Positions 12,104 through 64,000 of a stretch of DNA of 64,000 nucleotides are shown here, piece by piece. This stretch comes from an uncultured Mageeibacillus sp. (GTDB lineage: Bacteria; Bacillota; Clostridia; Saccharofermentanales; DTU023): contig CAZSFQ010000001.1 in NCBI GenBank assembly GCA_964606165.1, forward strand, positions 6,905 through 70,904, given 5' to 3'. A program made the translations under genes and the position numbers. Under the pieces are notes generated by a model that did not search any database, was not told where the DNA came from, and saw only the letters and a program-made list of their open reading frames with translations. Each line of letters begins with the position of its first letter. Position 1 is the stretch's first letter.

Positions 12104-12114
12104 AAGGTCACTCT

Positions 12115-15892: not shown

Positions 15893-15949
15893 TCCTGCGG
15901 TCTGTCAGAAAGATTTGACTTGTTCTGATCTTTCAGGCGCGGATGGCAT

Positions 15950-50523: not shown

Positions 50524-50540
50524 ATTTTTCTCCCTTCAGA

Positions 50541-50673: not shown

Positions 50674-53000
50674 GTTCTGACGTAGACCCGCTGGCGCCCG
50701 TATATGGGAAGTGTCCTGAGTTTTCCGGTGCGCTCCCAGCCATCGACTTGGACCATCAGGGCGGCGATGGCATAGGAATCAACCGGCTTTAAGTCGGCAA
50801 GATTTCTGCCAAAGCACTCACACCAGATCTCGGCATTGCTGACCTCGGTGCGCCTAATTGAACCTTTGCAAGATGTGATATCGCCTTCGAGATAGTTGCG
50901 TCTGTCGTAGACATCCATATCCGCCCAGTTGTCCGGCAAGAGCCGGGAAAGATACTCCTCAACCAGCCCTTGGCGCTCGTCCGCTTCCATCGCACTCTTC
51001 TGGGCATCTTCCGCCTCCCGCAGGAGGTCGCCTTCCAGATAGAGTTTCTCTCCTTGTTCGTAGTAGTACTTGGCCTCCGCCCAGATCTGGTCCCGCTCCT
51101 CGGGTGTAATCGTCCAGTCCACACGCTGTTCCGTCTGATGGCACTTAATAATCCAAAATCGACGGTTGCCTGTGATGTCACGCAAATAGCCCCGCTCGCC
51201 GTTGACCGTAGCAACGATGATGCACTGCCTGGGATGGCTTTCCACGACCTTGCCATAGCTGGGGCGGTACTTGTCGTCCGCTGTGGATAGAAAGGATTTG
51301 ACCTTTTCGATGTCCGCCTTTTTCATTCCGGCAAGTTCGCTGATCTCGATAATCCAAAAGCCCTGCAGTTTCTCTGCGGCGGATTTATCGCTCATGTCGG
51401 TAAGCGAAAGGGAATCCGAGAAATAATCGTCTCCTGCAAGCGAGCGCCACATGGTGCCCTTGCCGATACCCTGTGCACCGTCGATGACCGTCATGCTGTC
51501 AAACTTCGTGCCCGGCTCATAGATGCGGGCAACCGCCGCAGCTAAGGTCTTCCTCGATACCGTACGGACATACTTCGTGTCGTCCGCCTTCAGGTATTTA
51601 ATAAAGAGCGTTTCCGCCCGTACCTTTTTATCCCAGAGAGGAAGGGAATCCAGATAGTCTCTGACAGGATGAAAGCGCCTGTCATCGGCCACCTTGGTAA
51701 AACTGACGTTATGATTGCGGTCGGAAAAAGGGACATAGCGAACGTCCAGCAGGGCTTTGAGCTGGGCTGTGTCGGCATCCCGCCAGAACTTGTTATCCAG
51801 CGGCCGATCCCAGGGAATCTCACCTGTGACCTGAACCCGATGCGCCATCTCGTTGTAGGCAAAACCGGCAAAGTCGGGGTCATTGTTTAAGATCAGCATT
51901 TCGTTCCAGACGCTGTTTTGCAGGACTGTGCTTCTGGACATGTACTGGAGATCTTTTTGCCAGTCTGCATTCTCTCTGCCAAAATCCTCTCCGGCCTGCT
52001 TTCGCTTTTCTTCCATGCCACGGAGCTTCACCTTGTCGAGCGACATGGCAAATTCGCACATCTGATTGAAGCTTTTCTTGTCGTCACCGAACTTATGCAG
52101 GCGTACCAAATCAAAAGCATTGCAGAGTTTCAGATAGGCGATATCTTTTGCGTGATGGCTGTAGACAAACTTGCCGTCCTCTTTGATCTCGACACCGGGC
52201 AGGCTGTCCGAGCCAATCAGGTGGTAGCGGTTGGGATTGTCCGTTGCTTCATAGATCTCCGGCAGCAGCTCCTCCATTGCCGCGCTGATGGGAAAATAGG
52301 TGCGGTTGAAAAGACCGACCACACCTGTTTTTGTGAGCGGGTCCTGTACCTTTTTTACTTCCGTTGAATTGGCCCTGCTCTCCCTTGAGGAAGTAGGCAG
52401 CTGTGCAGGATCTTTCCAGCCCGGGTGTTTTGCAAGGATATTGTCAGGATCAAGCCAGTCTTTATCGGCTTCTTTGAAAACATACTCACCGTTGGAAGGC
52501 GTGCTTGGCCAGTACATGAGCTGGTTGGAAAGATAGGAGCAGGAATCAAAATAATCGATGCCAAGCATGTCCGCAAGAAAGCGTGCCACAGCGACAAATT
52601 CTTCCGCCGTCACATCCCTTGTAAGCGGGAAGATAATCCTGATTCTCGGGGCTTCCGGCGTATGGCTGTGAGTCGTATAAAAGCAGGACGCATAAGGTGT
52701 TAGCGACTCAAAGTTCTCAAGAAACTCCGGCTCAATATAATCACCGTCAAGCGCAATCATGGAGCGGGAAGCCACAGTATTGGAGAGCCTTCGTCCTCCG
52801 ACCAGAACCCCGGCAACAAAACCGCCGTGATTTTTGGCCGTCTGCCGCTCAGCTTTCGTCATGCGTTTGTATTCTTCAGCGGACTCAGGTGTACGGATGG
52901 TGACCTTGAGCCGCTCCTTTAATTCATCAAAGGTGATGGTCTTATTGGACCATTTCTTGGCGTAGCAGCTGCTGCCATAGGCAATTGGCAAATCTCTCAT
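50655..53000 (-). CDS. VapE-family (virulence-associated protein E) primase-helicase-like replication protein
   Basis: Walker A VIDGAQGIGKGT, and a Walker B-like segment in FWIIEISELAGM. The size and N-terminal region are typical of phage VapE proteins. The start is ATG 53000 after a GGAGGAGG RBS. Confidence 0.85.
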   Translation of the reverse strand: MRDLPIAYGSSCYAKKWSNKTITFDELKERLKVTIRTPESAEEYKRMTKAERQTAKNHGGFVAGVLVGGRRLSNTVASRSMIALDGDYIEPEFLENFESLTPYASCFYTTHSHTPEAPRIRIIFPLTRDVTAEEFVAVARFLADMLGIDYFDSCSYLSNQLMYWPSTPSNGEYVFKEADKDWLDPDNILAKHPGWKDPAQLPTSSRESRANSTEVKKVQDPLTKTGVVGLFNRTYFPISAAMEELLPEIYEATDNPNRYHLIGSDSLPGVEIKEDGKFVYSHHAKDIAYLKLCNAFDLVRLHKFGDDKKSFNQMCEFAMSLDKVKLRGMEEKRKQAGEDFGRENADWQKDLQYMSRSTVLQNSVWNEMLILNNDPDFAGFAYNEMAHRVQVTGEIPWDRPLDNKFWRDADTAQLKALLDVRYVPFSDRNHNVSFTKVADDRRFHPVRDYLDSLPLWDKKVRAETLFIKYLKADDTKYVRTVSRKTLAAAVARIYEPGTKFDSMTVIDGAQGIGKGTMWRSLAGDDYFSDSLSLTDMSDKSAAEKLQGFWIIEISELAGMKKADIEKVKSFLSTADDKYRPSYGKVVESHPRQCIIVATVNGERGYLRDITGNRRFWIIKCHQTEQRVDWTITPEERDQIWAEAKYYYEQGEKLYLEGDLLREAEDAQKSAMEADERQGLVEEYLSRLLPDNWADMDVYDRRNYLEGDITSCKGSIRRTEVSNAEIWCECFGRNLADLKPVDSYAIAALMVQVDGWERTGKLRTLPIYGRQRVYVRTEQVTS

Positions 53001-53002
53001 AC

Positions 53003-53320
53003 TCAAACCTCCTCCGTGCCGATGTAGCGAACAGGAATGTCGAGCTCCTGCGCCTTCTTGATTTCCTGCCACATGCCGATGGTGATTTCCCGTCCGAAGA
53101 CCCAGAGTTCACTGCACCTCTGTAAGATTCCAAAGTTCATCTCAAGAGCCTGCTTCCGCTCCTCCGACTCGTTGTCATCCAGGAACTGAGGGAATAGAAG
53201 ATGCGGTGCGATGGGGATGAATCCCTTGTCCACGACGTGGCGGCAATACCGTCTCGCCCGTTCTGTGTTTGTCTCGATCTCGCCCCGGTAAGGCGAGCAG
53301 ACAAAAATCATCTGTTTCAT
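53003..53320 (-). CDS. DUF4406/DUF1937-like protein (nucleoside 2-deoxyribosyltransferase-like fold)
   Basis: IFVCSPYRG...IAPHLLFPQF...CSELWVFG pattern. Confidence 0.45.
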   Translation of the reverse strand: MKQMIFVCSPYRGEIETNTERARRYCRHVVDKGFIPIAPHLLFPQFLDDNESEERKQALEMNFGILQRCSELWVFGREITIGMWQEIKKAQELDIPVRYIGTEEV

Positions 53321-53322
53321 GT

Positions 53323-53354
53323 AAAAAAGCTCCTTTCGGATTATTTAGAGGAGC
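53323..53354 (-). promoter_or_regulatory. hairpin whose 3' arm is the Shine-Dalgarno of the DUF4406-like gene, followed by a T6 run
   Basis: On the minus strand, GCTCCT (53354-53349) pairs with AGGAGC (53334-53329). This is followed by TTTTTT, then AC, then the ATG. Confidence 0.45.
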
Positions 53355-53358
53355 CATC

Positions 53359-53392
53359 AAAAAAGGATATTGAAAGTTTCCTCTCAATATCC
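53359..53392 (-). terminator. strong rho-independent terminator closing the R-M / ABC-3C block
   Basis: On the minus strand, the stem GGATATTGA/TCAATATCC with a 10-nt loop is followed by TTTTTT. Confidence 0.7.
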
Positions 53393-53440
53393 CCTTGGAC
53401 AAGTCATTCAGTTTTGGGCAAACTTTTTTAGATAGTGTTT

Positions 53441-54319
53441 TTACTCGGTGGCTTCAATATCTTTTAGGGTTTTCCCGGATTCATCTTTCCACATGACGTT
53501 TCCGCTTAAAGATGACCCACCAACGAAACCCGCGGCAGCAGAAGGGCTGGTAAACAGCAAATCAGCCATTAAAAATCCTTGATCATCAATTTTCCCTGCA
53601 TATTTCTCACGATAGTTGATGACATTGTCAGGACAGCTTTTCGTCATAGAAAGAGAAATCTTGCTTCCGGCTAAAACGACAAATCCCTCCGGTGTTCGTT
53701 TCCCTGTGGCTTCGGCCTTCGTGGTCTTGAAATACAAGTTAGGTTCATCGTCAATGGGACTAATCTCAATCACTGTAGGCTTGCTGGCCACTATGGGCTC
53801 AAAAACCTTGTAGCCTAGGGCTCCCATGACTAGTTTTGCGTAGGAGATAAACTCCTCCAGCTCACTCTCTTTTTCTTCAGTGGTGTTGCCGGGGCTTGGG
53901 TCATTGCCATTTTTGACTGAATAGCGTTTCGCATCAATCGCCATGTTACAAAAACGATTTTCTAAATAACTGATTTCCGTTGGGCCGAATGAATTATTTG
54001 AAGTGGTGAAGGCAACGGCCTCCGTCCAATAATCCATCTTGCTGTCACGGCGATGCTCATCCAGACGACAGAGGATGCCCCGCCCGTTCTTGCGAATACC
54101 TGCCTGGCCGATATAGACAACAGGGTCTCCGCTATCATCGGAAGTGCCGAAAAGAAAGTAGACACCTGTCTGGTCAAGATAAGTGATCTCCCGTGCCTTA
54201 TCCAGCATGGTGCGTGGAATTTTATAGGCGATACCGGTCCAGTTGGCCAACGTGCATTTGATGCGACCGGAAGCGTCTCCGTCCATCAGGAATAAATTGA
54301 TGTTTTTACCTCTTTTCAT
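53441..54319 (-). CDS. GIY-YIG nuclease-like domain protein with DUF4357-like C-terminal domain
   Basis: GVYFLFG...VVYIGQAG...R..EH...KMDYWTEA is a GIY-YIG-like core. The C-terminal GFVVLAGSKIS...SPSAAAGFVGGSSLSGNVMWK is typical of DUF4357. The start is ATG 54319 after a GGAGGTG RBS. Confidence 0.7.
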   Translation of the reverse strand: MKRGKNINLFLMDGDASGRIKCTLANWTGIAYKIPRTMLDKAREITYLDQTGVYFLFGTSDDSGDPVVYIGQAGIRKNGRGILCRLDEHRRDSKMDYWTEAVAFTTSNNSFGPTEISYLENRFCNMAIDAKRYSVKNGNDPSPGNTTEEKESELEEFISYAKLVMGALGYKVFEPIVASKPTVIEISPIDDEPNLYFKTTKAEATGKRTPEGFVVLAGSKISLSMTKSCPDNVINYREKYAGKIDDQGFLMADLLFTSPSAAAGFVGGSSLSGNVMWKDESGKTLKDIEATE

Positions 54320-54346
54320 GCTTAGAGCCACCTCCAAAATCACATG

Positions 54347-57300
54347 TTAGGTTTCATCTGTAAATGGTGCCTTACCTTCAGCAACCGAAAGATATTTCAA
54401 ATCTTCCGATTTAATTTTCGGATATTCACGATTTAAGCTCTGGTCACTACTCGACAAATCATCTTGATTGACGTATGGCTTCCCCTCCGTGTTATAGGTC
54501 AAATTGAAAACCAAATCAGAGAGCCATTTTTTGAAGGAAGGATTATCCTGAAATTGCTTAAACAGCTCCATATTGTCGGACATGATGGAAAAAATTACCT
54601 GCTGCAGGGCGCGTTCACTTTCAGTACGTGCCTCCTGCTCGTCGGAATTTTTCATAGCGTTCTGATATTGCTTGTTCTTAGATACCATGGCAGGAATTTC
54701 AAGAATTTGACGCTGTACATTATCCGCATCTTTCCAGTTGATGTTCCCAAACATATCATTAAAATCCAGGATGATCTTAGAAAGTAGATCCATTTCAGGC
54801 TCAACAATGAAGCCTACTTTGCCTGCGGGAACGGGTGGTATTTCGGCGTCCTCATCTTCAAGCTTTATGGAAATTGCTTCTCTTGCTTCGTTTCGATAGC
54901 TGCCCAGATCAACCGTAGAAAGGATACCTTCAGATAGATCATCTGTGCCTGGAGATGGCAGCTTGGGAATGAGTAAATTTAGAAAGATGGAGAGCCTCTC
55001 CCAGTCGATATTTCCGTAGGGCAAAATCGAACCCAGAAAACCATACGTGCGAACGAAAGACTTGGCCGCACTTTTGAACTTGATTTGATCATCTACTTCC
55101 AGCTGCTTATAGACAGCCGTACAGGCATCGAGAATGGGATCAAGCCTGTCGCGCTCTGCCCCGTTCAGAAACAGCTCAACCAGTGTTTCAACATGATCGT
55201 TGTCATAAACCTGATAACTTTCCATCAAGGAAATAAGGTCATATAGCTTGTTTGGGTCAGTTTCTCCGGACAAAATGGTTGTCCTGTAAAATTTGGAAAA
55301 TGCAGCCTCAATGACAGAAGTTTTATTAGCAAAATCAAGAACATAAACATCATGTTTGCCAGGATAAGATCTGTTGAGCCGCGAGAGTGTCTGAACCGCT
55401 GCGATGTCATAAAGGGGTTTATCCACATACATCGTCTGCAGCAGGGGTTCGTCAAATCCGGTTTGAAACATGTCAGCTACAATAAGTATGCGAAAGGGGT
55501 CTTTTTTGAATTCCTTAGGTATTTTTGCATCCGGAAAGCCATTGAGCGCCGCAGATGCAAGGGCAGGTTCCAGCCCCTTGTACTTGTGTTCACCGGAAAA
55601 GGCAATAATGGTTTTATAAGGGCTGCGTCGTTCTGCGAGACATTTGTTGATGGCATAGTAATACTCAACACAGCGCCCTATACCTGCCGTTACCACCATC
55701 GCTCTTGCCTGACCGTTTATTTTCCTCTTGGCTATAATCTGTTCATGAAAGTGCTCGACTATCATAGCCGCTTTTTTGGCAATGACATCTGAGTTACCCT
55801 CGACAAAGCTACGTAGTTTCTTTTGTGCCCGCTTCTTGTCAAACATGGGATCATCTTCAACCGTTTTCATGATTTTGTACCAGGAATCTATGGTTGTGTA
55901 ATTCTTTAACACATCGAGAATGAAACCCTCCTGGATAGCCTGCTTCATCGTGTAAACGTGGAAAGGACGGTGTTTTATTTCCCCGTCGACCTCATACATG
56001 GTGCCAAACATTTCCTCAGTCTTATTTTTAGGCGTTGCCGTGAAAGCAAAATAGCTGGCCTTGGGTACGAGTTTGCGCCCTTCCATCATGGCATTGATTT
56101 TGTCTTCATTGTCCAGCTCATCCATTGCAGCCTGACCAGAAAGTGCCAGGTTCATCTGGGCGGAATTTCGGCCACTTTGACCTGAATGTGCTTCGTCAAT
56201 GATGATGGCAAATTGATTGTCTTTGTGCGCCTGACCCAGCTCAGAAATAATATAGGGAAATTTTTCGATCGTGGTCACGATGATTCGTTTGCCATCTTGA
56301 ATGGCCTGGCGCAAATCACGAGAATACTCTGCCCACGCAACAGTATTCTTGACCTGCATAAATTGTTTGATTGTATCTCTGATTTGCTTATCCAAAATCC
56401 GCCTGTCAGTCACAACCAGCACAGAATCAATCATAGGACGACCACCCTCTTCCAGTCCTATGAGCTGGTGAGCCAGCCAGGCGATAGAATTGGATTTCCC
56501 ACTGCCGGCGCTGTGTTGGATGAGATATCGTTTCCCGACGCCACTTAGTTTGACATCCGCTAAAAGCTTTTCTACGCAATCTAACTGATGGTAACGCGGC
56601 CAGATTTGTTTGATGGTCTTCTTCTTGGTATCAGGATCCACTTCTTCAGTGACCTGGGCATAATTCTCAATAATGCGGGATAGCTTCCTTTTGGTCAGAA
56701 TATTCTTCCACAGATAGTCCGTCATCAAACCATCCGGATTGGGCGGGTTTCCTGCACCATCGTTATAACCTTTATTGAAGGGTAAAAACCAGCTGTCTTT
56801 TCCTGCGAGTTTTGTGCAAAACTGAATCGTGGCATCATCCACAGCAAAGTGGACGATACAGCGTTTAAAATGAAAGATTAGATCACGCGGATCTCGATCT
56901 TCTTTATACTGGCGCACAGCATCTTCCGTTTTTTGCTTGGTCAGTTGATTTTTTAGCTCCATGGTGATGACCGGAAGACCATTGATGAACAAACAAAGGT
57001 CAAGAGCGAGCTTTGTCGCATCCTGCGAATAACGAAGCTGCCGTGTCACGCTGAAGATATTTTTCTCCCACATGAGCTTTGCTTGCCGATTGTTTTCAGT
57101 TGGCGTCAGATAAAACATGATTAGGTCAGCAGGATAAACCTTGACGCCCTTGCGTAGCACATCAATAATGCCACGCTTGGCAATCTCTCCGGACAGGCGA
57201 TTAAGAAATTGTCGCTTCTTTGTATCCGATTTGAAGACACCTAGTTTTTCCATCTCTTCCGGCTGAGTGTCTTCGAGGAAGCGAAATAAGCGAGTCTCAT

Positions 57301-57424
57301 CAACTGCATATGCTTTATTGTAGTCTGCGTTTATCCCCTCCTCGTAATCATTGGATTCAACCAGATATTTTACGATTAAGGATTCAAGACCACTTTCTTT
57401 GGTGTTGGAAAAAGCCATACTCAA
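54347..57424 (-). CDS. hsdR: type I restriction enzyme R subunit
   Basis: An N-terminal nuclease region, then QHSAGSGKSNSIAWLA (motif I), IIIDEAHSGQ (DEAH), and a helicase C-terminal half. Confidence 0.95.
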   Translation of the reverse strand: MSMAFSNTKESGLESLIVKYLVESNDYEEGINADYNKAYAVDETRLFRFLEDTQPEEMEKLGVFKSDTKKRQFLNRLSGEIAKRGIIDVLRKGVKVYPADLIMFYLTPTENNRQAKLMWEKNIFSVTRQLRYSQDATKLALDLCLFINGLPVITMELKNQLTKQKTEDAVRQYKEDRDPRDLIFHFKRCIVHFAVDDATIQFCTKLAGKDSWFLPFNKGYNDGAGNPPNPDGLMTDYLWKNILTKRKLSRIIENYAQVTEEVDPDTKKKTIKQIWPRYHQLDCVEKLLADVKLSGVGKRYLIQHSAGSGKSNSIAWLAHQLIGLEEGGRPMIDSVLVVTDRRILDKQIRDTIKQFMQVKNTVAWAEYSRDLRQAIQDGKRIIVTTIEKFPYIISELGQAHKDNQFAIIIDEAHSGQSGRNSAQMNLALSGQAAMDELDNEDKINAMMEGRKLVPKASYFAFTATPKNKTEEMFGTMYEVDGEIKHRPFHVYTMKQAIQEGFILDVLKNYTTIDSWYKIMKTVEDDPMFDKKRAQKKLRSFVEGNSDVIAKKAAMIVEHFHEQIIAKRKINGQARAMVVTAGIGRCVEYYYAINKCLAERRSPYKTIIAFSGEHKYKGLEPALASAALNGFPDAKIPKEFKKDPFRILIVADMFQTGFDEPLLQTMYVDKPLYDIAAVQTLSRLNRSYPGKHDVYVLDFANKTSVIEAAFSKFYRTTILSGETDPNKLYDLISLMESYQVYDNDHVETLVELFLNGAERDRLDPILDACTAVYKQLEVDDQIKFKSAAKSFVRTYGFLGSILPYGNIDWERLSIFLNLLIPKLPSPGTDDLSEGILSTVDLGSYRNEAREAISIKLEDEDAEIPPVPAGKVGFIVEPEMDLLSKIILDFNDMFGNINWKDADNVQRQILEIPAMVSKNKQYQNAMKNSDEQEARTESERALQQVIFSIMSDNMELFKQFQDNPSFKKWLSDLVFNLTYNTEGKPYVNQDDLSSSDQSLNREYPKIKSEDLKYLSVAEGKAPFTDET

Positions 57425-58773
57425 TCCTCCTCATTTTCAAAATCTGAGTCAGCCGGATCTTCATCAAGATCTTCGTCAAACTCTTCTTCGATATATTCAA
57501 AATCAGGAACCTTTACATCTCGTACGTCAATCTGACCGGTGACAACATCGGAGATGAGACGGGATTTGAGTTCGTGCAGAAGATCTACTTTTTCATGTTT
57601 TTTATCAGTAAGTTCATCAATCTTCTTCAGTTGATTATCTATTTGGGACAATATTTTCTTTTGATTATTTAAATTTGGAACATCTAGTTTGATTGACAAT
57701 AGTGCATTCATGTCTAAATTTTGAATACCAGTAGTCTGCTTTATTATCCTTCTAATGTCGCCTGTAAAGTGCAACAAATGAAGATTTAATAACGCATACT
57801 TCGGGCCTATTACTCTTTCATCTATCCTTAAACACTGTAAAAAGTTCGCAAACAAAGCCTTATATGGCTTATCAAAAATTACCGTCCGTCCAACAGGGGT
57901 TTTATCTCCGCCGCCAGACTTTTCAACCAAGATATCCCCTTTTTGTAATGTCAACTCGTCAATTTCTTTTTGAGTATAGTATCGATGTGTAAGTTGTTCC
58001 GGCTTGGTATTTACAAATTGTCCAGACATGAAATCCATATCAGCAACACGCAGGCAGATACACTGTTTTTTATCCTCAGCGTTGTCAGAACCCCACGATC
58101 CTGTCAGATTTTTCATTAACAGCCGTTTCAAGGGTATTTGACGGGTATCGTTAGCTGATTTTAAGGTATCAGCAATTACCTTTTTTCTTGCTTCTTGTAA
58201 AAGTGCAAGCTGTTCTGAACATATTCTTATCAGCCGATTGATCTCCGACACTTTCCAGTCCAGATAACGTACAATTTGATCCTGTTCTTCTCGAGGAGGA
58301 ACGGGAAGCTTAGTGGACATAAACGATTCAATTTTTATTGTTTTTCTTAAGCCAGTATAAAGTGGCTTGAGCCCCTTCACTTTATCTATCGATAAATAGA
58401 AGTAATAAACGAAACGAGAATTTATATTATGCACGTGCATAATATTATAAGCACCTGTCAGCATTCCATCAAATGCTGACAATCCAACTGTTCTAGGCGT
58501 TTCATCGATATCAAAAAGACAAAACGCCATATCACCTTTTTTTACAATTTTATATTTATCAAAAGATGCAGGGAATTTTCCCTTAGGATTATCTATATCT
58601 CTCGGAACTATCCCATTCAGTGTCAATGACAGAAGAGTGTAACTGCTGTGATCATTTCCAACTTCATCCTTTGATTCTATAAAAACATTTTTGTTACGCC
58701 ACAATTCCCAATGGGACGGAACAATTCTTACCCACTGAATATCAGTATTCTTATAATCCTCATACCTCCTCAT
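57421..58773 (-). CDS. hsdS: type I restriction enzyme S (specificity) subunit
   Basis: Two target-recognition-domain halves separated by conserved coiled-coil spacers (REEQDQIVRYLD... / ...LNNQKKILSQIDNQLKKIDEL). It has 4-nt overlaps with both hsdM and hsdR. Confidence 0.9.
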   Translation of the reverse strand: MRRYEDYKNTDIQWVRIVPSHWELWRNKNVFIESKDEVGNDHSSYTLLSLTLNGIVPRDIDNPKGKFPASFDKYKIVKKGDMAFCLFDIDETPRTVGLSAFDGMLTGAYNIMHVHNINSRFVYYFYLSIDKVKGLKPLYTGLRKTIKIESFMSTKLPVPPREEQDQIVRYLDWKVSEINRLIRICSEQLALLQEARKKVIADTLKSANDTRQIPLKRLLMKNLTGSWGSDNAEDKKQCICLRVADMDFMSGQFVNTKPEQLTHRYYTQKEIDELTLQKGDILVEKSGGGDKTPVGRTVIFDKPYKALFANFLQCLRIDERVIGPKYALLNLHLLHFTGDIRRIIKQTTGIQNLDMNALLSIKLDVPNLNNQKKILSQIDNQLKKIDELTDKKHEKVDLLHELKSRLISDVVTGQIDVRDVKVPDFEYIEEEFDEDLDEDPADSDFENEED

Positions 58774-60776
58774 GCCAGATCCTCCAGTAAGCCTTCCAAC
58801 AGCCCGTCTGACTCGTTTTCTATCTGTTTCAGCTCTTTAATGATTTCTGCCATTGGTCTAAGTTCGATGGGTTTATAGAAGTACTTGGTAAAGCTGACTT
58901 CATAGCCGATTTGGGTTTTCTTTTCGTCTATATATGCGTCTGGTGCATAAGGGTACACTTCCTTTTCCATGAAGGCGTTGATGCCACCATCATAGGTGAA
59001 AGGGATCAGCTCGGTATCCCTAAGATCCGTATCGGCTTCACCGTCTACTGCCTTTGCCGATGCGTCTTTTTCTGTGATGAAGGGTTGAATTCTCTTCAGC
59101 ATGGCGGCTTTAAGCCCCGTAGCTTTAGCAAAGGCGGTCCAGTCATCCAAAGAGCCAACAGTTGCTGCTTTCTTTACGGCTTGCCGTACTTCTTCCGGTT
59201 TATCATTCTTTCTAAAAGCACTGTCCGGGACTTCATTTTCTGGATGGACACGCAGCCTAAGTGGTCGATCCACGATAACCGACCAATAAGCAAAATCCTT
59301 GTTTAAGAAAACCTTACTGACTTCACTCTCTTCCATATCACAGAAGATGCGGACGATTTCTTTGCGAATTTCCGGTGTGAATTTGCAATTCTTTTTCCCC
59401 ATGTTCTTTTTTAGCGGCGATTTCATAGCCGTCGCATCAATCAGCTGAACTTTGCCTTTGCGCCGCTCTTCTTTTTTATTGGACAGAATCCAGATATAGG
59501 TGGCAATCCCCGTGTTATAAAACATGTTCTCCGGTACGGCGACAATGGCTTCTACGAGGTCGTTCTCAAACATGTAGCGTCGGGCATTGCTCTCACCGCT
59601 GCCGGCATCTCCCGTGAATAAAGACGACCCGTTATGGACCTCGGCAATCCTGCTGCCGATTTCCGTATCTTGCTTCATTTTGGAGATATTGTTTAGTAAA
59701 AAGAGTAGCTGTCCGTCGCTCACACGCGGCAGCATCTGCATCGCCTCTCCACCCTCCAAATAGGCATTGAAGCGGGTGTCCAGAATATTTTTCTTGCCTC
59801 CCATTTTTTCAGCGTCCGTTTTCCAACTTTTGCCGTAGGGCGGATTAGAGAGCATGAAGTCAAAAGACCGTGCAGCATGCTGGTCATCGGAAAGTGTAGA
59901 CCCATACATGATATGCTGGGCTTCTTCTCCATCCCCTTTGAGGAGTAAATCAGCCGTGCAGATGGCGTAGGTTTCAGGATTTATTTCCTGGCCAAAAAGG
60001 TGGATGGATACGTCTTTGCCACGCCTTTGGGCAAGAGTTTGCAGCCTGTCCTGGGCAACAGTCAGCATTCCGCCTGTGCCGCAGGCTCCGTCATAGCAGG
60101 AATAAGAAGCGTCCATTATTTTGTCGGCAATCGGCACAAAGATGATATCCGCCATGAGCTCTACGACATCACGTGGAGTCCAATGTTCTCCGGCTTCTTC
60201 ATTATTTTCTTCATTGAACTTGCGAATCAATTCTTCGAAAATCGTACCCATACTATGATTGTCCAGCCCCGGATGTTTGAGTATCGTTTTTTCTTCGTCC
60301 AGGTATACCGGTTTGGGGCTTAAATTGATTTCGGAGGAGGTAAATTTCTCAATAACGGAACCCAAGATATCTGCATCGATCATGGTGTCAATCTGGTTTC
60401 GGAATTTAAACTTGTCAAGAATAAGTTGGACGTTGGGAGAAAAGCCATCTAAATAGGCAATAAAGTCAGCTTTTAAGGTTTGAGCCTTTGCACGGCTGGT
60501 AAGGTCTTTCAGAAGGAATGGTGATGCATTACAGAAGGCTTCCCCAGCGGCATTGCAAAGTGCAGGCCACTGGTTATCAATCTTGGCAGCATCAAGTTGT
60601 TTTTTCATTTTAAGAACGTCATCTTTTGTGTCTTCCAGTACGGCATCTAAACGCCTAATAACCGTCATTGGGAGAATCACGTCGCGATACTTTCCGCGTA
60701 CATAAACATCGCGCAAACAGTCATCGGCAATACCCCATATAAAACTGACAATTTTATTGTAAGTCTGATTATTCAT
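58770..60776 (-). CDS. hsdM: type I restriction-modification system M subunit (N6-adenine methyltransferase)
   Basis: The HsdM N-terminal domain is IVSFIWGIADDCLRDVY..GKYRDVILPMTVIRRLD. DGACGTGGML is motif I and NPPYG is motif IV. Confidence 0.95.
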   Translation of the reverse strand: MNNQTYNKIVSFIWGIADDCLRDVYVRGKYRDVILPMTVIRRLDAVLEDTKDDVLKMKKQLDAAKIDNQWPALCNAAGEAFCNASPFLLKDLTSRAKAQTLKADFIAYLDGFSPNVQLILDKFKFRNQIDTMIDADILGSVIEKFTSSEINLSPKPVYLDEEKTILKHPGLDNHSMGTIFEELIRKFNEENNEEAGEHWTPRDVVELMADIIFVPIADKIMDASYSCYDGACGTGGMLTVAQDRLQTLAQRRGKDVSIHLFGQEINPETYAICTADLLLKGDGEEAQHIMYGSTLSDDQHAARSFDFMLSNPPYGKSWKTDAEKMGGKKNILDTRFNAYLEGGEAMQMLPRVSDGQLLFLLNNISKMKQDTEIGSRIAEVHNGSSLFTGDAGSGESNARRYMFENDLVEAIVAVPENMFYNTGIATYIWILSNKKEERRKGKVQLIDATAMKSPLKKNMGKKNCKFTPEIRKEIVRIFCDMEESEVSKVFLNKDFAYWSVIVDRPLRLRVHPENEVPDSAFRKNDKPEEVRQAVKKAATVGSLDDWTAFAKATGLKAAMLKRIQPFITEKDASAKAVDGEADTDLRDTELIPFTYDGGINAFMEKEVYPYAPDAYIDEKKTQIGYEVSFTKYFYKPIELRPMAEIIKELKQIENESDGLLEGLLEDLA

Positions 60777-60990
60777 CTGCCTCTCCCTCTCTTATAGTTT
60801 CAACGATATCGTTAAGTTCAACATCTAAAGCACTGCAAATCCTCATCAGGACATCGGTTGTCACGTTTTCATCTTTGCCAAGCTTGGCAAGAGAAGATGA
60901 GCTTATACCTGCGGCTTTTCTGAGATCGGTCTTGGTCATATCTTTGTCAATTAGCAATTTCCAAAGCTTCTTATAGCTTGTCTTCATCAT
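60769..60990 (-). CDS. small XRE/Cro-type HTH protein linking the ABC-3C cassette to hsdM
   Basis: The HTH is MTKTDLRKAAGISSSSLAKLGKDENVTTDVLMRICSALDVELNDIV. Its stop overlaps the hsdM start by 8 nt, and its start is 7 nt after the ATPase stop. Confidence 0.75.
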   Translation of the reverse strand: MMKTSYKKLWKLLIDKDMTKTDLRKAAGISSSSLAKLGKDENVTTDVLMRICSALDVELNDIVETIREGEADE

Positions 60991-60997
60991 ATTGTGA

Positions 60998-62632
60998 TTA
61001 CCCCTTGTTCCATGAGGTTCCATATAACTCACCTCCATTATCTGAAAGCTCCAGAGCTGTATTTGCTTCAACGATTCTTGCAGTGTCCTCCGTATAGGAA
61101 AGATGCTTATCAAAAGCTATAAAAATCTGTTTTTCACTGCGGTCATAGATTTTCATGATGCCGTCGACGGAGCTGTCGCCCACGTTTTTCAAAAGCAGTG
61201 AGTCGTGTGCAATGGCTGGAAGGTCGGTAAGCTCAAGCACCGCCAGATCATATAGAAGCAGACCTTTATAATTCGTTCCGGTGCCTGTGTCATGTGGCGT
61301 CTGAAAACGATAGCTGTTGTATTCATTAAATTTCAGAGTAGGAGCCCTTCGCCTATCTTCAAAGAGCGAATCATTATATTCTTTCATCTTGCCATTTAAG
61401 GCATCCTCTATTTCAGCAAGAATAACTGTCGTTGCCTGCTTTAATAAATCGTTAGCCTTTTTCTGTGCAGCTTGCAGTTCTGTCAATTTCAGGTACGCAT
61501 CATTCTGTCGCTGAAGCGCATCGATCCTGCCCTTTAAATCTGAATAACTGTCGAGAAATTCTTGAGAAAGGTCGCCGAAAAAGCCAAGCTCTAAAATCTG
61601 ATCCTTAATCTGTTTTATTTGCTCACGCAGAAACTCTATATGATGGCTAACCTCTAGTCTTTCTTCTTCGAACTGATTGTCCAGAATCCTCGCCAATTTG
61701 CGATGGTAGCCTTCCACCTCGTAAATTTTTCTGACATCAGCCTTCGGAAAAAACTCTTGTAATGCATTAAGATCAGCTTCAGTCGGATAGAGACCGTACT
61801 CAAGACTCATATCCAAAAGTTTCATTTTTCGTTCAAATGCGGAGAGCTGATTTTCCAGCTCCATCTGTTCTCGCTTCAGTTGGCGCTTGGCCTGACTTTT
61901 TTCAATATCATCACGAGAATTTGTCTCTACCTGATCGTTCTCCAGGTTCTCCAATTGAATTCGGAGCTCATTTATTTGAGACAGGTTGTTTTCAAATTGC
62001 TCTTTTCCGCCAACCAGAGCCGGTACAAATTGATAATTTCGAGCTTTTCTAAATACAGATAGTTGCTCCCTTTGCTCATCCTTCCTGGTATTCAGCACCT
62101 CAATTTGTTGGTAACGATCAAAAAGGCAAATAACCCGTTTAATTGATCTTTCCATGGTGTCGCCCTGTATTCCGTATAGTGGTTTTTTCTCATCCAGATT
62201 GTCTTTACCATAGATTCGAAAAAAGCCACTGATCGCTTCACGGAATGAGATGCCATGAAAATCAGCTTGATAATTTTCCTGAAGCCACATTAAAAACTCG
62301 GCCTTTTCCCAGGTTTCTTCTGTCAGGTTATTTTTGTCATCACATAGGTGTATTAGATCCGGTGTTTTGGTCGAACGGGCAAATCTCTGCTTTTTACCAT
62401 TGAATTCAAAAGCAAAGAATATAGTATGGTCTCCCAGATGCTTAACACCATCACTTGTGAGATAGCTTGAGCCACCGAAGACAAAATCAATGGCAAGCAG
62501 TGCAGAGGATTTTCCAATGGAGTTTGTTCCGTCCGCTTTTCCCAATATGACGTTTAAGCCTTTATGGAATTTTATGGGTTTGCGTACCTGATCTCCTATT
62601 TTAAATGCCGGAGAACTCATCTCTATAAGCAC
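60998..62632 (-). CDS. SMC/Rad50-like ABC ATPase with long coiled-coil insert (DUF2326-type; ABC-3C ATPase component)
   Basis: The N-terminus GLNVILGKADGTNSIGKSSALLAIDF is a Walker A. About 300 aa of heptad-rich helix follows. The C-terminal GLLLYDLAVLEL...IAHDS is a Walker B/D-loop-like region. Confidence 0.65.
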   Translation of the reverse strand: MLIEMSSPAFKIGDQVRKPIKFHKGLNVILGKADGTNSIGKSSALLAIDFVFGGSSYLTSDGVKHLGDHTIFFAFEFNGKKQRFARSTKTPDLIHLCDDKNNLTEETWEKAEFLMWLQENYQADFHGISFREAISGFFRIYGKDNLDEKKPLYGIQGDTMERSIKRVICLFDRYQQIEVLNTRKDEQREQLSVFRKARNYQFVPALVGGKEQFENNLSQINELRIQLENLENDQVETNSRDDIEKSQAKRQLKREQMELENQLSAFERKMKLLDMSLEYGLYPTEADLNALQEFFPKADVRKIYEVEGYHRKLARILDNQFEEERLEVSHHIEFLREQIKQIKDQILELGFFGDLSQEFLDSYSDLKGRIDALQRQNDAYLKLTELQAAQKKANDLLKQATTVILAEIEDALNGKMKEYNDSLFEDRRRAPTLKFNEYNSYRFQTPHDTGTGTNYKGLLLYDLAVLELTDLPAIAHDSLLLKNVGDSSVDGIMKIYDRSEKQIFIAFDKHLSYTEDTARIVEANTALELSDNGGELYGTSWNKG

Positions 62633-62847
62633 AAAAACACCTCGCCTTCATCTGACATATCAATTGCTCTGAGAGCATACAGACAATCCATTACTGCTAG
62701 AAAATCTGTCGCTTCACTCAGTCTTGGTCTTGTCATAATATATAATTCACGAACGGATTTGGATCCGTCCTTCAACTCATTCAGCACCTCCGGTATCAAA
62801 GCCAAGGTGCTGTTTTTATATGAGTACAATTTATTCGGTAATTGCAT
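62623..62847 (-). CDS. small (74-aa) middle-component-like protein of the ABC-3C cassette
   Basis: The internal ATG 62847 gives MQLPNKLYSYKNSTLALIPEVLNELKDGSKSVRELY..., which is winged-helix-like. The gene overlaps both neighbours (17 and 10 nt). Confidence 0.45.
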   Translation of the reverse strand: MQLPNKLYSYKNSTLALIPEVLNELKDGSKSVRELYIMTRPRLSEATDFLAVMDCLYALRAIDMSDEGEVFLCL

Positions 62848-63979
62848 CAAACACCTCACAGCTCTGGATGAAATAGGAGACGACAACCTGGCAGTAAATA
62901 ATTTCTTGAAGCGTCTGTCTGTGGATCTTTTCAGCGATCTCAGCAAAGATCTCCATTTGATTTTTATTCTTTTTGGAGAGGCCCCTATATATAGCATGTA
63001 TCTGGTTTTGCAAGCTCTCGTAGTCAATTTCTCCTCGTTTATCGAGGTTCATCATAATTTCACGAACAGTTACGAAGTAGCTGAGCACAAAATTTTTTAC
63101 CGTCAAATATAAGAGATGCTCATGAGAAGAATCGATCTTCTTAGTCAGTTCCTTGGGATCAAATGACACTTCCTCAAAATCCTGCATTTGGAGCTTTTTT
63201 ATTCTCGTAACTACACCGACAATGCCTCGTTCTAGTGGCAACTCGTCAAGCATTTGAATAATCTGTCGTCTTGCTAAAAGTGTTTTCTTCACTGCTTTCA
63301 GTTCTTTGCATTTTTTCTTGTTGTCGTCCAGTGAGTACGTTGCGTAGCAGCAAGGACACATCGCAAGCAAGTTTTCTGGGCTGGCTTTCACGTTTTTGTC
63401 GATTAAGCCTACCTCGAAGAAAGATGCAGCTTTATGGTTTGCTGTGACTACGAGCGATCGACCGCAACCTGGAAAAGGACAAGTGTTTTCAGCCTCAGCA
63501 AGAAGATAATTGCCGTATTGATTTTTCAAATCCAAGGCCAGCTGAGCTTGTTGCTGTGCTTCTAATTTGCTTTGAGATACCAAGCCGGCCGATTGTTGAA
63601 TAACACTGACCATCAATTCAGAAACTTTTTCTCCAACATTTTCGGCATTAATAGTTGAGTCGTAACTTTGCAAATCCTCGGCTAACAATTTACGTTGAGT
63701 TTCATTTCGCTCATTAATTCTCTCTGTCAAAAATTCCGGTGTCAGCCGATACACGATATTTTTTGCCAGTGTCTTTGACAAACCCCTCTTTGAGTAGTTT
63801 CGAAGCGTTTCATCTTTCATCTTTTTAGAAGGATCTTTCGACGTGCCCCACTCTTCCTCAGCAACAGTCGTAATCATGGCCATCAGTTCACGGAAAAAAT
63901 AGGGAACAGCATCTCCATCCGCCATATGCTTTTTTAGAATTTTAAATAGCATTTGAAAATTCAAGGCCATTGTCTCCAT
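62831..63979 (-). CDS. ABC-3C effector-like protein: helical N-terminus, CxxxxC...CxxC zinc knuckle with degenerate HNH-like spacing, conserved helical C-terminal domain
   Basis: Contains CPFPGCGRSLVVTANHKAASFFEVGLIDKNVKASPENLLAMCPCCYATY. The C-terminal tail is ...IIYCQVVVSYFIQSCEVFD. It is the first gene of the coupled block. Confidence 0.5.
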   Translation of the reverse strand: METMALNFQMLFKILKKHMADGDAVPYFFRELMAMITTVAEEEWGTSKDPSKKMKDETLRNYSKRGLSKTLAKNIVYRLTPEFLTERINERNETQRKLLAEDLQSYDSTINAENVGEKVSELMVSVIQQSAGLVSQSKLEAQQQAQLALDLKNQYGNYLLAEAENTCPFPGCGRSLVVTANHKAASFFEVGLIDKNVKASPENLLAMCPCCYATYSLDDNKKKCKELKAVKKTLLARRQIIQMLDELPLERGIVGVVTRIKKLQMQDFEEVSFDPKELTKKIDSSHEHLLYLTVKNFVLSYFVTVREIMMNLDKRGEIDYESLQNQIHAIYRGLSKKNKNQMEIFAEIAEKIHRQTLQEIIYCQVVVSYFIQSCEVFDAITE

Positions 63980-64000
63980 CCTTTAGATTTTGAACCACGC

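What the first reader, a model, noticed from the sequence alone, without database searches (positions are those of the whole stretch)
53441..63979. ABC-3C cassette, HTH, type I R-M and GIY-YIG/DUF4357 fused into one translationally coupled eight-gene block
From 63979 down to 53441 every junction is an overlap (17, 10, 8, 4 and 4 nt) or a very short gap (7 and 27 nt). I see no internal terminator, and a single strong terminator closes the block at 53359-53392. The whole block is visibly AT-richer than the flanking phage genes, which suggests acquisition as one unit. An ABC-3C module operonically upstream of hsdMSR suggests functional coupling rather than mere island co-location. For example, the SMC-like ATPase could sense DNA ends or stalled translocating HsdR, or it could act as a second line when restriction is evaded. 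I do not know of a described composite of this type.
Basis: inference. Interest (0 to 1): 0.75.

Follow-up and report, generated by a model that had tools for sequence, protein, structure and literature searches.

The report
Modular prophage defence locus, not fusion
A tightly packed eight-gene operon in a gut-Firmicute prophage strings together a Lamassu-type abortive-infection system, a small regulator, a type I restriction system and a lone nuclease, but about 300 related loci show these are separately swappable modules in a phage defence hotspot, not one fused machine.

Summary
Window 53441-63979 (minus strand) carries eight intact, overlapping or nearly abutting genes: an ABC-3C/Lamassu cassette (CTD11 effector, MC7, DUF2326 ATPase), an XRE HTH, hsdM/S/R, and a GIY-YIG/DUF4357 gene. 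The block is AT-richer than its flanks and closes with a strong terminator.

The interpretation, a specific functional ABC-3C/type I R-M composite acquired as one unit, is not supported.

- The cassette plus HTH recurs at one fixed site of a Bacillota prophage family. In 72 non-redundant loci, the gene after the HTH is type I R-M in only 15. Elsewhere it is type II, III or IIG R-M, or DISARM/Hma-, Druantia- or BREX-like genes.
- The same HTH also follows other Abi-type modules: a second ABC-3C type, an AAA_13 cassette, NACHT, an SF1 helicase, or nothing.
- Twenty phage contigs with the same backbone and the same R-M subfamily lack both the cassette and this HTH.
- Near-identical phages have swapped hsdM/hsdS.

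Best reading: this is a two-slot prophage defence hotspot around a conserved small HTH that sits in the classical C-protein position. The modules are independent but co-transcribed.

Worth noting: the Abi-type slot / HTH / R-M-type slot pairing is regular, and a conserved triple 10-nt-period repeat heads the locus.

The parts
63991..64000 (-). Last copy (GGTTCA, 63996-63991) and preceding spacer of a triple direct repeat with 10-nt period that heads the locus. The other two copies and the promoter lie beyond the window end.
   Evidence: One search gives the window sequence. One search shows the full element in L001/L090 and in 53 related loci. Searches find it in 82 non-redundant loci of all slot-1 types.
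62831..63970 (-). ABC-3C/Lamassu effector (LmuA-like, 379 aa): N-terminal helical domain, HNH-like zinc beta-beta-alpha domain, C-terminal CTD11.
   Evidence: Pfam CTD11 1.5e-37. PADLOC LmuA N-terminal match 1.4e-11. AlphaFold model pLDDT 76. Foldseek local matches to Cap5 and McrA HNH domains.
62623..62847 (-). ABC-3C middle component MC7 (LmuC-like, 74 aa). Overlaps the effector by 17 nt.
   Evidence: Pfam MC7 5.5e-24.
60998..62632 (-). SMC-like ABC ATPase (LmuB-like, DUF2326, 544 aa). Overlaps MC7 by 10 nt.
   Evidence: Pfam DUF2326 1.6e-16 and AAA_23. PADLOC LmuB and PDC-M68B. 882 homologues.
60769..60990 (-). Small XRE-family HTH (HTH_26, YozG/VanU-like, 73 aa). It is the conserved anchor gene between the two variable slots. 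Its RBS (AAGGGG) lies inside the ATPase 3' end.
   Evidence: Pfam HTH_26 4e-19. Present after the ATPase in 54 of 57 genome loci. At least 455 relatives in viral contigs.
58770..60776 (-). Type I R-M methyltransferase HsdM (668 aa). Its start overlaps the HTH stop by 8 nt.
   Evidence: Pfam HsdM_N plus N6_Mtase. PADLOC MTase_I 3e-245.
57421..58773 (-). Type I specificity subunit HsdS (450 aa, two target-recognition domains).
   Evidence: Pfam Methylase_S, two stretches. PADLOC Specificity_I 1.7e-112. Swapped in L090/L091.
54347..57418 (-). Type I restriction subunit HsdR (1023 aa). The nuclease motif D...ELK and DEAH box are intact.
   Evidence: Pfam HSDR_N, SWI2_SNF2, ResIII, T1R_D3. TIGR00348 2.6e-66. 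Motifs read in the translation.
53441..54319 (-). GIY-YIG nuclease with C-terminal DUF4357 (292 aa). This is PADLOC candidate PDC-S14 and probably a stand-alone, type IV-like nuclease.
   Evidence: PADLOC PDC-S14 2.4e-109. Pfam DUF4357. GIY...YIG...R...E...N motifs read in the translation. Contexts.
53354..53395 (-). Intrinsic terminator closing the block (16-bp stem plus U-run).
   Evidence: -33.7 kcal/mol, z -3.9.

Best explanation
The block is the filled state of a two-slot defence hotspot that sits at a fixed position in a family of temperate Bacillota phages. That position is next to the sigma-70-region-4-like gene heading the DUF2800 / Enc34-type SSB / PolA / DUF7768 / VapE / SNF2 replication module.

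- Slot 1 holds an abortive-infection-type NTPase sensor system. Here it is an ABC-3C (type II Lamassu-family) cassette: CTD11 effector, MC7 and DUF2326 ATPase.
- A small conserved XRE HTH follows.
- Slot 2 starts a few to a few tens of bases after the HTH stop and holds a restriction-type system. Here it is a complete type I R-M.
- In this lineage slot 2 is followed by a GIY-YIG/DUF4357 nuclease (PDC-S14).

The eight genes are probably transcribed together from a promoter just beyond the window end, through a leader carrying three 10-nt-spaced direct repeats, down to the terminator at about 53354-53395.

The modules work independently and in layers. This part is inferred from the families, not shown here.
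- HsdMSR methylates self DNA and cuts unmethylated incoming DNA.
- The GIY-YIG/DUF4357 protein probably cuts modified DNA.
- The Lamassu-type complex holds its effector inactive until the SMC-like ATPase senses aberrant DNA (ends or replication intermediates), then releases it to stop the infected cell.
- The HTH, which sits in the classical C-protein position, most likely regulates the operon, including the restriction genes.

What the comparison shows directly is modular exchange of each part. Co-transcription, the regulatory role of the HTH and the activities of the proteins are inferred.
For: 1. Cassette plus HTH is a conserved unit with variable cargo. In 57 genome loci with ATPase identity of at least 45%, 54 have the HTH directly after the ATPase. 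Among 72 non-redundant window-type loci with downstream sequence, slot 2 breaks down as follows:
- type I R-M: 15
- C5-MTase-led type II or DISARM-like: 14
- type II: 4
- DruA-like: 3
- MORC plus Z1: 3
- DrmD/Hma: 2
- HKD-SNF2 plus DUF4391: 2
- AAA_21 plus DUF4276: 2
- type III, DUF6079 and Mrr-helicase: 1 each
- unassigned: 24. These include host genes and decayed hsdM or type III Mod remnants.

2. The HTH is the anchor, not the cassette. There are at least 455 HTH relatives in viral contigs against 25 loci for the ATPase. Upstream of the HTH are found:
- ABC-3C CTD6/MC2/AAA_23
- a 360-aa LmuA-N-like protein plus a 215-aa protein plus AAA_13 (PDC-S06)
- NACHT-SNaCT14
- an SF1 helicase pair
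- nothing on that strand
The gene after the HTH is still a type II or IIG restriction enzyme in these loci.

3. HTH identity tracks ATPase identity (Spearman 0.66). At matched ATPase divergence it is not higher for loci sharing cargo: 66.5 vs 70.7% and 70.6 vs 71.2%.

4. Reverse test. Twenty viral contigs have the same backbone and the same R-M subfamily (HsdM 65-81%, HsdR 75-88%) but no ABC-3C and no XRE HTH. L277 has an HTH_17 protein before hsdM instead. L276 has a CTD6-type ABC-3C with the same R-M and GIY gene.

5. Mosaicism. The window and L090/L091 are 93-99% identical except over 59316-57431 (hsdM 3' end plus hsdS) and 58745-58301 (TRD1).

6. The GIY-YIG/DUF4357 gene follows many kinds of R-M-like clusters. 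Only 4 of 64 informative loci have it directly after an HsdR homologue detected with the window's protein.

7. Tight packing is general. 97 of 118 HTH loci have a co-directional ORF of at least 150 aa within 400 nt, with a median gap of 30 nt.

8. Lamassu mechanism from the literature: effector sequestration, DNA-end sensing, and release followed by oligomerisation (bioRxiv 10.1101/2025.03.14.643221; 10.1101/2025.06.23.660979).
Against: - Slot 2 is dominated by DNA-modification-based systems, and slot 1 by Abi-type NTPase sensors. This regular pairing could reflect function rather than hotspot history alone. However, R-M systems are the commonest defence systems in these hosts, and I had no matched background to test enrichment.
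- Type I R-M is somewhat more frequent behind the window-type cassette (15 of 72 loci) than behind other slot-1 types (1 of about 40). The two samples were seeded differently and are phylogenetically non-independent.
- No transcript data exist, so one operon is an inference.
- The effector's HNH-like domain lacks the canonical general-base histidine. The killing activity assumed for a Lamassu-type system is therefore not evident.
- Loci came from homology searches capped at 80 hits, and many are MAG or viral-contig fragments.
Confidence: 0.65

Rival explanations
1. Generic two-layer immune operon. The conserved HTH and leader form a chassis that deliberately couples any Abi-type sensor (slot 1) to any restriction-type system (slot 2). 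There are two possible forms. The HTH could act as a C-protein-like timer that delays restriction when the prophage enters a new host. Alternatively, the slot-1 sensor could fire on the products or the failure of restriction, for example DNA ends for Lamassu.
For: - Slot 1 holds Abi-type NTPases and slot 2 holds restriction-type systems across 132 loci.
- The slot-2 gene starts a median 30 nt after the HTH stop.
- The HTH sits exactly where C proteins sit, directly before REase genes in L123, L128, L134 and L145.
- A different small HTH (HTH_17) precedes hsdM where the XRE is absent.
- Lamassu is activated by DNA ends (10.1101/2025.06.23.660979).
Against: - Slot 1 can be empty while HTH plus R-M persists (L133-L137, L188-L191).
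- Slot 2 can be host genes, IS elements or virulence cargo (L014/L049, L031, phiStag1).
- Slot-1 sensors are mechanistically unrelated (SMC-like, NACHT, SF1 helicase), so a common physical link to restriction is unlikely.
- No C-box-like operator was identified.
- The HTH is HTH_26, not the usual C-protein family.
Confidence: 0.2
2. One reading: a dedicated ABC-3C / type I R-M composite in which the SMC-like ATPase senses stalled HsdR or restriction products, acquired and selected as one eight-gene unit.
For: - Overlapping junctions run through the whole block, including the HTH/hsdM 8-nt overlap.
- There is one closing terminator.
- Type I R-M is the single most frequent identified partner of this cassette type, at 15 of 72 loci.
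- The arrangement recurs in L017, L028, L063, L108 and others.
Against: - 57 of 72 cassette loci have another partner or none.
- 20 phage contigs carry the same R-M subfamily at the same site without the cassette.
- L276 pairs the same R-M with a different ABC-3C type.
- hsdM/hsdS are exchanged between 94-99% identical phages.
- GC content is heterogeneous within the block.
Confidence: 0.05
3. The block serves the phage's own cycle rather than host defence. The HTH would be a phage switch or early regulator. The operon, which lies between the divergent sigma-like gene and the replication genes, would be expressed early in lytic growth to degrade host or competitor DNA or to protect phage DNA by methylation.
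For: - In the window lineage the block lies inside the phage, directly upstream of DUF7768-VapE-SNF2 and divergent from sigma / DUF2800 / SSB / PolA.
- A conserved repeat element whose sequence varies between phages, like an immunity operator, sits in the leader.
- A DUF2800 RNA motif occupies the same intergenic region on the other strand.
Against: - In most relatives the locus is at the prophage edge and is followed by host genes (L014, L049, L031). That is the usual position of lysogen-expressed morons.
- A strong terminator separates the block from the replication genes.
- All the families present are defence families.
Confidence: 0.1

Closest known systems
Type II Lamassu / ABC-3C systems (for example Vibrio cholerae DdmABC, Salmonella LmuACB)
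   Same: Three-gene order: effector with a family-specific C-terminal domain, a small middle component, and an SMC/Rad50-like ABC ATPase, with overlapping ORFs. The Pfam ABC-3C families CTD11 and MC7 are matched above threshold. PADLOC LmuA and LmuB models are matched weakly.
   Different: - The ATPase is short (544 aa, DUF2326 type).
- The effector carries an HNH-like zinc domain without the canonical catalytic histidine, instead of a Cap4, Mrr or PD-(D/E)xK nuclease.
- The cassette is followed by a translationally close XRE HTH gene that is not part of described Lamassu systems.
- No member of this CTD11/MC7 subtype has been tested, as far as I could find.
Prophage and satellite defence hotspots (P2/P4 hotspots of E. 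coli; defence morons of temperate phages)
   Same: Conserved phage flanks and a fixed site. Highly variable defence cargo is exchanged between otherwise similar phages. The locus is often at the prophage edge.
   Different: - The phage family is different (Bacillota siphophages with a DUF2800 / Enc34-SSB / PolA module).
- There are two adjacent slots with different content classes, separated by a conserved small HTH gene.
- A conserved triple-repeat leader heads the locus.
Controller (C) protein-regulated R-M systems (C.PvuII, C.AhdI, C.Esp1396I)
   Same: A roughly 70-80 aa XRE-superfamily HTH is encoded immediately upstream of, and sometimes overlapping, the restriction or R-M genes on a mobile element.
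   Different: - The HTH family is different (HTH_26, YozG/VanU-like).
- The protein is 55-85% identical across R-M systems of unrelated types, so it travels with the phage, not with the R-M.
- It usually precedes the methyltransferase too.
- No C-box was found.
Abi genes linked to type I R-M loci (PrrC with EcoprrI; RloC; genes embedded in hsd operons)
   Same: An abortive-infection NTPase system lies adjacent to hsd genes in one transcription direction. This gives a precedent for a second line when restriction is blocked.
   Different: PrrC is embedded between hsd genes, binds the R-M complex and is almost exclusive to type I R-M. Here the cassette lies upstream of a conserved HTH, and its partner changes freely.
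WYL/BrxR-type regulators heading diverse defence islands
   Same: One conserved small DNA-binding protein is found next to many unrelated defence systems.
   Different: - The fold is different (XRE HTH, no WYL ligand domain).
- The gene lies between two systems rather than at the head.
- Its regulatory role is untested.
PADLOC candidate PDC-S14 (GIY-YIG plus DUF4357 single-gene candidate)
   Same: Full-length match, E 2.4e-109. GIY-YIG motifs are intact.
   Different: PDC-S14 is only a candidate with no tested function. DUF4357 is otherwise found fused to McrB and GmrSD type IV enzymes (PMC11090510, PMC4619093). That suggests, but does not show, recognition of modified DNA.

Membership tests
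ABC-3C / type II Lamassu | SMC/Rad50-like ABC ATPase with a Walker A motif and a central coiled coil | tested here: met
   - Pfam AAA_23 (1.2e-6) and DUF2326 (1.6e-16).
- PADLOC LmuB 5e-9 and PDC-M68B 8e-11.
- Walker A GKADGTNSIGKSS is invariant in 20 homologues.
- The Walker B aspartate is followed by Ser (AHDS), not Glu, so hydrolysis may be slow.
ABC-3C / type II Lamassu | Small middle component encoded between effector and ATPase | tested here: met
   Pfam MC7 5.5e-24 against a cut-off of 27 bits. It overlaps both neighbours.
ABC-3C / type II Lamassu | Effector protein with an ABC-3C C-terminal docking domain | tested here: met
   Pfam CTD11 1.5e-37 covering residues 242-377.
ABC-3C / type II Lamassu | Effector N-terminal enzymatic (toxic) domain | tested here: inconclusive
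   - An HNH-like fold spans about residues 160-215. Foldseek local matches to Cap5 and McrA have probability 1.0 but E 0.1-0.4.
- A profile search against McrA gives E 0.43.
- Four Cys, D191 and N200 are conserved.
- The position of the general-base His is G/S-L in all 34 aligned sequences.
ABC-3C / type II Lamassu | Protection against phage or plasmids by abortive infection | not testable with these tools
   Needs experiments.
Type I restriction-modification system | HsdM N6-adenine methyltransferase | tested here: met
   Pfam HsdM_N plus N6_Mtase. PADLOC MTase_I 3e-245, full length. The NPPY motif is present in the translation.
Type I restriction-modification system | HsdS with two target-recognition domains | tested here: met
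   Methylase_S, two stretches. Specificity_I 1.7e-112 over residues 3-437.
Type I restriction-modification system | HsdR with an N-terminal PD-(D/E)xK nuclease and an SF2 translocase | tested here: met
   HSDR_N, SWI2_SNF2, ResIII and T1R_D3. TIGR00348 2.6e-66. D...ELK and DEAH motifs were read in the translation.
C-protein-controlled R-M | Small HTH gene immediately upstream of the restriction genes | tested here: met
   The HTH stop overlaps the hsdM start by 8 nt. Elsewhere the HTH directly precedes REase genes, with a median gap of 30 nt.
C-protein-controlled R-M | C protein co-inherited with its cognate R-M, with C-box operators upstream of the C gene | tested here: not met
   HTH identity follows the cassette or phage lineage, not the cargo. 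The same HTH precedes type I, II, IIG and III systems. No shared operator was seen upstream of the HTH.
   15 of 72 loci. 20 contigs have the R-M at the same phage site without the cassette.
Prophage defence hotspot | Conserved flanking phage genes with variable defence cargo at a fixed site | tested here: met
   The sigma-like / DUF2800 / SSB / PolA / DUF7768 / VapE flank is conserved. Cargo is variable.
PADLOC PDC-S14 | Single protein with a GIY-YIG nuclease domain and C-terminal DUF4357 | tested here: met
   PDC-S14 2.4e-109 over residues 6-297. DUF4357 9.8e-12.

The most novel reading that the evidence does not exclude
The conserved XRE HTH and the triple-repeat leader form a dedicated regulatory chassis in a widespread family of gut and Firmicute temperate phages. 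This chassis co-expresses one abortive-infection sensor (slot 1) and one restriction-type system (slot 2) as a programmed two-layer immune operon. The HTH acts as a universal, cargo-independent controller. For example, it could delay restriction on entry into a new host, or derepress the Abi layer when restriction is overwhelmed. The cargo can then be swapped without rewiring the regulation.
Probability: 0.2. Interest if true: 0.7.

Novelty: new member of a known kind. Interest (0 to 1): 0.4.

Why it matters
If the block were a true fusion of Lamassu and type I restriction, it would be a new kind of composite immune system. The evidence says it is not. It is another case of defence systems stacked in a phage hotspot.

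Three things are still useful.
- It defines a well-delimited, highly variable two-slot locus in temperate phages of gut Clostridia, streptococci, Gardnerella and relatives. This locus can be mined for new defence genes. The unassigned cargo in 24 of 72 loci, and slot-1 variants such as the AAA_13 three-gene cassette, are ready candidates.
- It gives a natural experiment for defence-system synergy, because the same R-M occurs with different Abi partners or none.
- It points to an untested small regulator and a repeat element that may control the expression of toxic defence cargo on mobile elements.

Tried and rejected
- Near-identity search of the block against GenBank phages found no match. 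Only the structural region has 72-77% relatives.
- The Aravind-lab ABC-3C paper (NAR 2020) could not be read. What I say about CTD/MC nomenclature comes from Pfam descriptions and citing papers.
- Is the HTH an R-M-borne C protein? Rejected. It co-varies with the ATPase, not the cargo, and it precedes unrelated R-M types.
- Is the HTH a fourth, dedicated ABC-3C component? Rejected. The same HTH follows NACHT, AAA_13, SF1-helicase and CTD6-type modules, or no module.
- Which protein binds the triple repeat? I compared repeat sequence with the sigma-like protein's C-terminal HTH and with the XRE recognition helix. Neither shows consistent covariation. For example, SSASIAKL-type HTHs pair with GGTAGG, GGATAT and TCGGAA repeats, and L050 and L054 share the repeat but not the sigma-like sequence.
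- RNA structure in the leader: RNAalifold found no consensus pairs in 20 sequences. Rfam has no match on that strand.
- A PDB sequence search with the effector profile gave nothing significant. The Foldseek hits are local only.
- The script stopped at fragment L317. The rows up to L316 were used.
- Literature searches for DUF2326, DUF4357, PDC-S14, and prophage hotspots with Lamassu found no description of this locus.


Full report
**1. Observation.**

On the minus strand from 63979 to 53441 there are eight intact ORFs with overlapping or nearly abutting ends. Profile searches confirm every assignment.

| Gene | Coordinates | Evidence |
|---|---|---|
| ABC-3C effector | 62831-63970 | CTD11, E 1.5e-37 |
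| Middle component MC7 | 62623-62847 | E 5.5e-24 |
| DUF2326/AAA_23 ABC ATPase | 60998-62632 | Pfam |
| HTH_26 protein | 60769-60990 | Pfam |
| HsdM | 58770-60776 | Pfam, PADLOC |
| HsdS, two recognition domains | 57421-58773 | Pfam, PADLOC |
| HsdR | 54347-57418 | Pfam, TIGRFAM |
| GIY-YIG/DUF4357 protein | 53441-54319 | PADLOC candidate PDC-S14, E 2.4e-109 |

The block ends with a 16-bp-stem intrinsic terminator. Weak internal terminator- and promoter-like matches occur at the rate expected by chance. GC content is 0.39-0.48 in the block against about 0.51 in the neighbouring phage genes.

Identical copies occur in nine public contigs. These show what lies beyond the window end:
- a roughly 400-nt intergenic region with a good extended -10 promoter candidate;
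- a divergent sigma-70-region-4-like gene.

**2. What surrounds it.**

The window is a prophage of a Clostridia-type host. The genes below the terminator are DUF7768, a VapE-type primase/helicase and an SNF2 helicase. Packaging, tail and lysis genes follow on the same strand.

**3.

I aligned 20 homologues of the ATPase and fetched 80 loci from species-representative genomes and 25 from viral contigs. tblastn with the window's eight proteins gave three results.

(a) Effector, MC7 and ATPase are always together. In 54 of 57 loci with at least 45% ATPase identity, the same small HTH follows directly. It is more conserved than the ATPase (mean pairwise identity 68% against 57%).

(b) What follows the HTH is variable. 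Pfam and PADLOC scans of representatives identify:
- type I R-M;
- C5-methyltransferase plus Eco29kI-type REase;
- C5-methyltransferase plus DrmD-type SNF2;
- Hma;
- NgoBV-type and other type II REases;
- type III R-M;
- DruA-like proteins;
- HKD-SNF2 plus DUF4391;
- AAA_21 plus DUF4276 with a PAPS-reductase protein;
- MORC-ATPase plus Z1;
- an Mrr-helicase;
- DUF6079;
- decayed hsdM and type III Mod fragments;
- host genes in some loci, and IS66 plus a surface protein in Streptococcus phage phiStag1.

(c) In a non-redundant table of 132 loci, type I R-M follows the window-type cassette in 15 of 72 informative cases.

**4. The HTH, not the cassette, is the fixed point.**

A search of viral contigs with an HTH alignment found at least 455 relatives. 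In the best 80, the phage backbone is the same (sigma-like gene, DUF2800, Enc34-type SSB, PolA, DUF7768, VapE). The genes between the sigma-like gene and the HTH fall into several classes:
- the window-type ABC-3C;
- a second ABC-3C type (CTD6/MC2/AAA_23);
- a three-gene set with an AAA_13 ATPase (PDC-S06), whose first protein shares the LmuA-like N-terminal domain with the window's effector;
- a NACHT-SNaCT14 STAND protein;
- an SF1-helicase pair;
- nothing on that strand.

Whatever precedes the HTH, the gene that follows it is again a restriction enzyme in the loci tested: type II or IIG. A co-directional ORF starts a median 30 nt after the HTH stop. At matched ATPase divergence, loci with the same cargo do not have more similar HTHs. 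The HTH therefore belongs to the phage lineage, not to the R-M.

**5. Reverse test and mosaicism.**

I searched viral contigs with HsdM. Twenty contigs have the same backbone and the same R-M subfamily (HsdM 65-81%, HsdR 75-88% identity) but neither an ABC-3C cassette nor the XRE HTH. In L277, a 284-aa protein and an HTH_17 protein precede hsdM instead. L276 combines a CTD6-type ABC-3C with the HTH, the same R-M and the same GIY-YIG gene.

Two phages with 93-99% DNA identity to the window differ exactly over the hsdM 3' end plus hsdS (59316-57431), or over the first recognition domain of hsdS (58745-58301). The block is therefore a mosaic, not a unit.

The GIY-YIG/DUF4357 gene follows many kinds of R-M-like clusters in 80 metagenomic loci. 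In L196 and L276 it stays next to DUF7768 while the upstream cargo differs. It may therefore mark the distal edge of slot 2 in this lineage.

DUF4357 is otherwise fused to McrB and GmrSD type IV enzymes (PMC11090510, PMC4619093). I infer a modification-dependent nuclease. This is not tested.

**6. Mechanism.**

Shown here: modular architecture, intact catalytic motifs in HsdM, HsdR and the GIY-YIG domain, and membership of the first three genes in ABC-3C families.

Inferred from published Lamassu work (10.1101/2025.03.14.643221; 10.1101/2025.06.23.660979; PMC10586767): the ATPase/MC7 complex sequesters the effector until foreign DNA ends or structures are sensed.

The effector model (pLDDT 76) has three parts: an N-terminal helical domain, an HNH-like zinc domain with local matches to the Cap5 and McrA HNH domains, and the helical CTD11. 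The four cysteines, D191 and N200 are invariant or nearly so. The canonical general-base histidine is replaced by Gly/Ser-Leu. By motif alignment from my own knowledge of the Cas9 HNH DVDHIVP motif, the His position is Leu. The effector's activity is therefore uncertain.

The HTH sits where controller proteins of R-M systems sit, but it fails the co-inheritance and C-box criteria. A regulatory role is the most likely one, but it is inference.

**7. Comparison with the known, and verdict.**

The cassette is a member of the ABC-3C/Lamassu family, of an uncharacterised CTD11/MC7/DUF2326 subtype. The hsd genes are an ordinary complete type I system. The last gene is PADLOC candidate PDC-S14. The ensemble is a new example of a prophage defence hotspot.

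What remains of interest:
- the regular slot structure (Abi-type sensor, conserved HTH, restriction-type system);
- the tight spacing;
- a conserved leader element.

No paper in the searchable library describes this locus.

**8. Side observation.**

Directly upstream of the first slot-1 gene, in 82 non-redundant loci of all slot-1 types, there are three direct repeats with a 10-nt period. The window lineage has GGTTCA-N4-GGTTCA-N4-GGTTCA. Other lineages have GGTGCA, GGTACA, GGTAGG, GGATAT, TCGGAA, GAGATGCA or TTCCTCAA. A conserved ATTATAnAAAAT lies about 45-50 nt further upstream.

The three copies within a locus agree while loci differ, as expected for a protein-binding site whose specificity co-evolves with its binder. 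I found no covariation with the sigma-like protein or the XRE HTH, and no conserved RNA structure. Only the last copy lies inside the window (63996-63991).

On the opposite strand of the same intergenic region, outside the window, Rfam finds the DUF2800 RNA motif (RF02960, 97 bits).

**Caveats.**
- Many are fragments of MAGs or viral contigs.
- Cargo classes were assigned by tblastn to annotated representatives, leaving 24 of 72 unassigned.
- No phylogeny-corrected enrichment test was possible with these tools.

Noticed in passing
window 63991-64000 (partial); full element at L001 about 1100-1130 and L090 about 6160-6190; 82 related loci: A triple direct repeat with a 10-nt period (GGTTCA x3 here) lies just upstream of the RBS of the first slot-1 gene, with a conserved ATTATAnAAAAT about 45-50 nt further upstream. 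The repeat sequence differs between phages, but the three copies within a locus agree. It is present whatever system fills slot 1. The binder is unknown.
   Followed up: partly
L001 781-942, minus strand (about 180-340 nt beyond the window end at 64000): The Rfam DUF2800 RNA motif (RF02960, 97.1 bits, E 6.5e-18) lies in the leader of the divergent sigma-like / DUF2800 / SSB / PolA operon. It shares the intergenic region with the defence-operon promoter.
   Followed up: no
window 57431-59316 and 58301-58745, compared with L090 and L091: Phages 93-99% identical to the window have replaced the hsdM 3' end plus hsdS, or only the first target-recognition domain of hsdS. This is recent specificity switching by recombination inside an otherwise fixed block.
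   Followed up: yes
window 48909-53320 compared with L011, L043, L051 and others: In most relatives DUF7768-VapE-p93-SNF2 lie on the far side of PolA and are transcribed away from the defence locus. In the window lineage (also L090 and L091) they lie co-directionally downstream of it. This is consistent with an inversion of the PolA...cargo segment that moved the defence locus from the prophage edge to its interior.
   Followed up: partly
window 63340-63480 (effector residues about 160-215): The effector's HNH-like zinc domain keeps four Cys, D191 and N200 but lacks the canonical general-base His in all 34 aligned homologues. The conserved N-terminal roughly 130 residues (invariant T34, V36, E38, W41, D46, R57, Y59, R62) match the N-terminus of a PADLOC LmuA model. 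They also match the first protein of the AAA_13 cassette (L160). The function of this domain is unknown.
   Followed up: partly
L029 11882-12547; L013 11885-12943: Truncated hsdM (the first third, same subfamily) and a truncated type III Mod lie directly after the HTH. These are decayed R-M cargo left in slot 2.
   Followed up: no
L277 4820-5915 (and about 19 similar viral contigs): Here the same type I R-M sits at the same phage site without the ABC-3C or the XRE HTH. It is preceded by a 284-aa protein without a significant Pfam match and a 90-aa HTH_17 (excisionase/MerR-like) protein. So a different small DNA-binding protein occupies the pre-hsdM position.
   Followed up: partly
L275 (Streptococcus phage phiStag1, PP091924.1) 7662-16148: A cultured-host prophage of S. 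agalactiae carries the CTD11/MC7/DUF2326 cassette plus a yozG-like HTH. The MC7 gene is annotated as a MafI family immunity protein. The cassette is followed by IS66 genes and an LPXTG surface protein instead of an R-M.
   Followed up: no
L196 7001-8285; L276 12327-13610; window 53003-54319: The GIY-YIG/DUF4357 gene stays adjacent to DUF7768 (57-61% identity) while the upstream R-M or slot-1 content differs. It may be the conserved distal flank of slot 2 in this lineage.
   Followed up: partly
L160 1946-5996; L130, L141, L171, L184: A three-gene cassette (a 360-aa LmuA-N-like protein, a 215-aa protein without a Pfam match, and a 766-aa AAA_13 ATPase = PADLOC PDC-S06) occupies slot 1 in several phages. 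PDC-S06 is listed as a single-gene candidate, but here it looks like the ATPase of a Lamassu-like three-component system.
   Followed up: no
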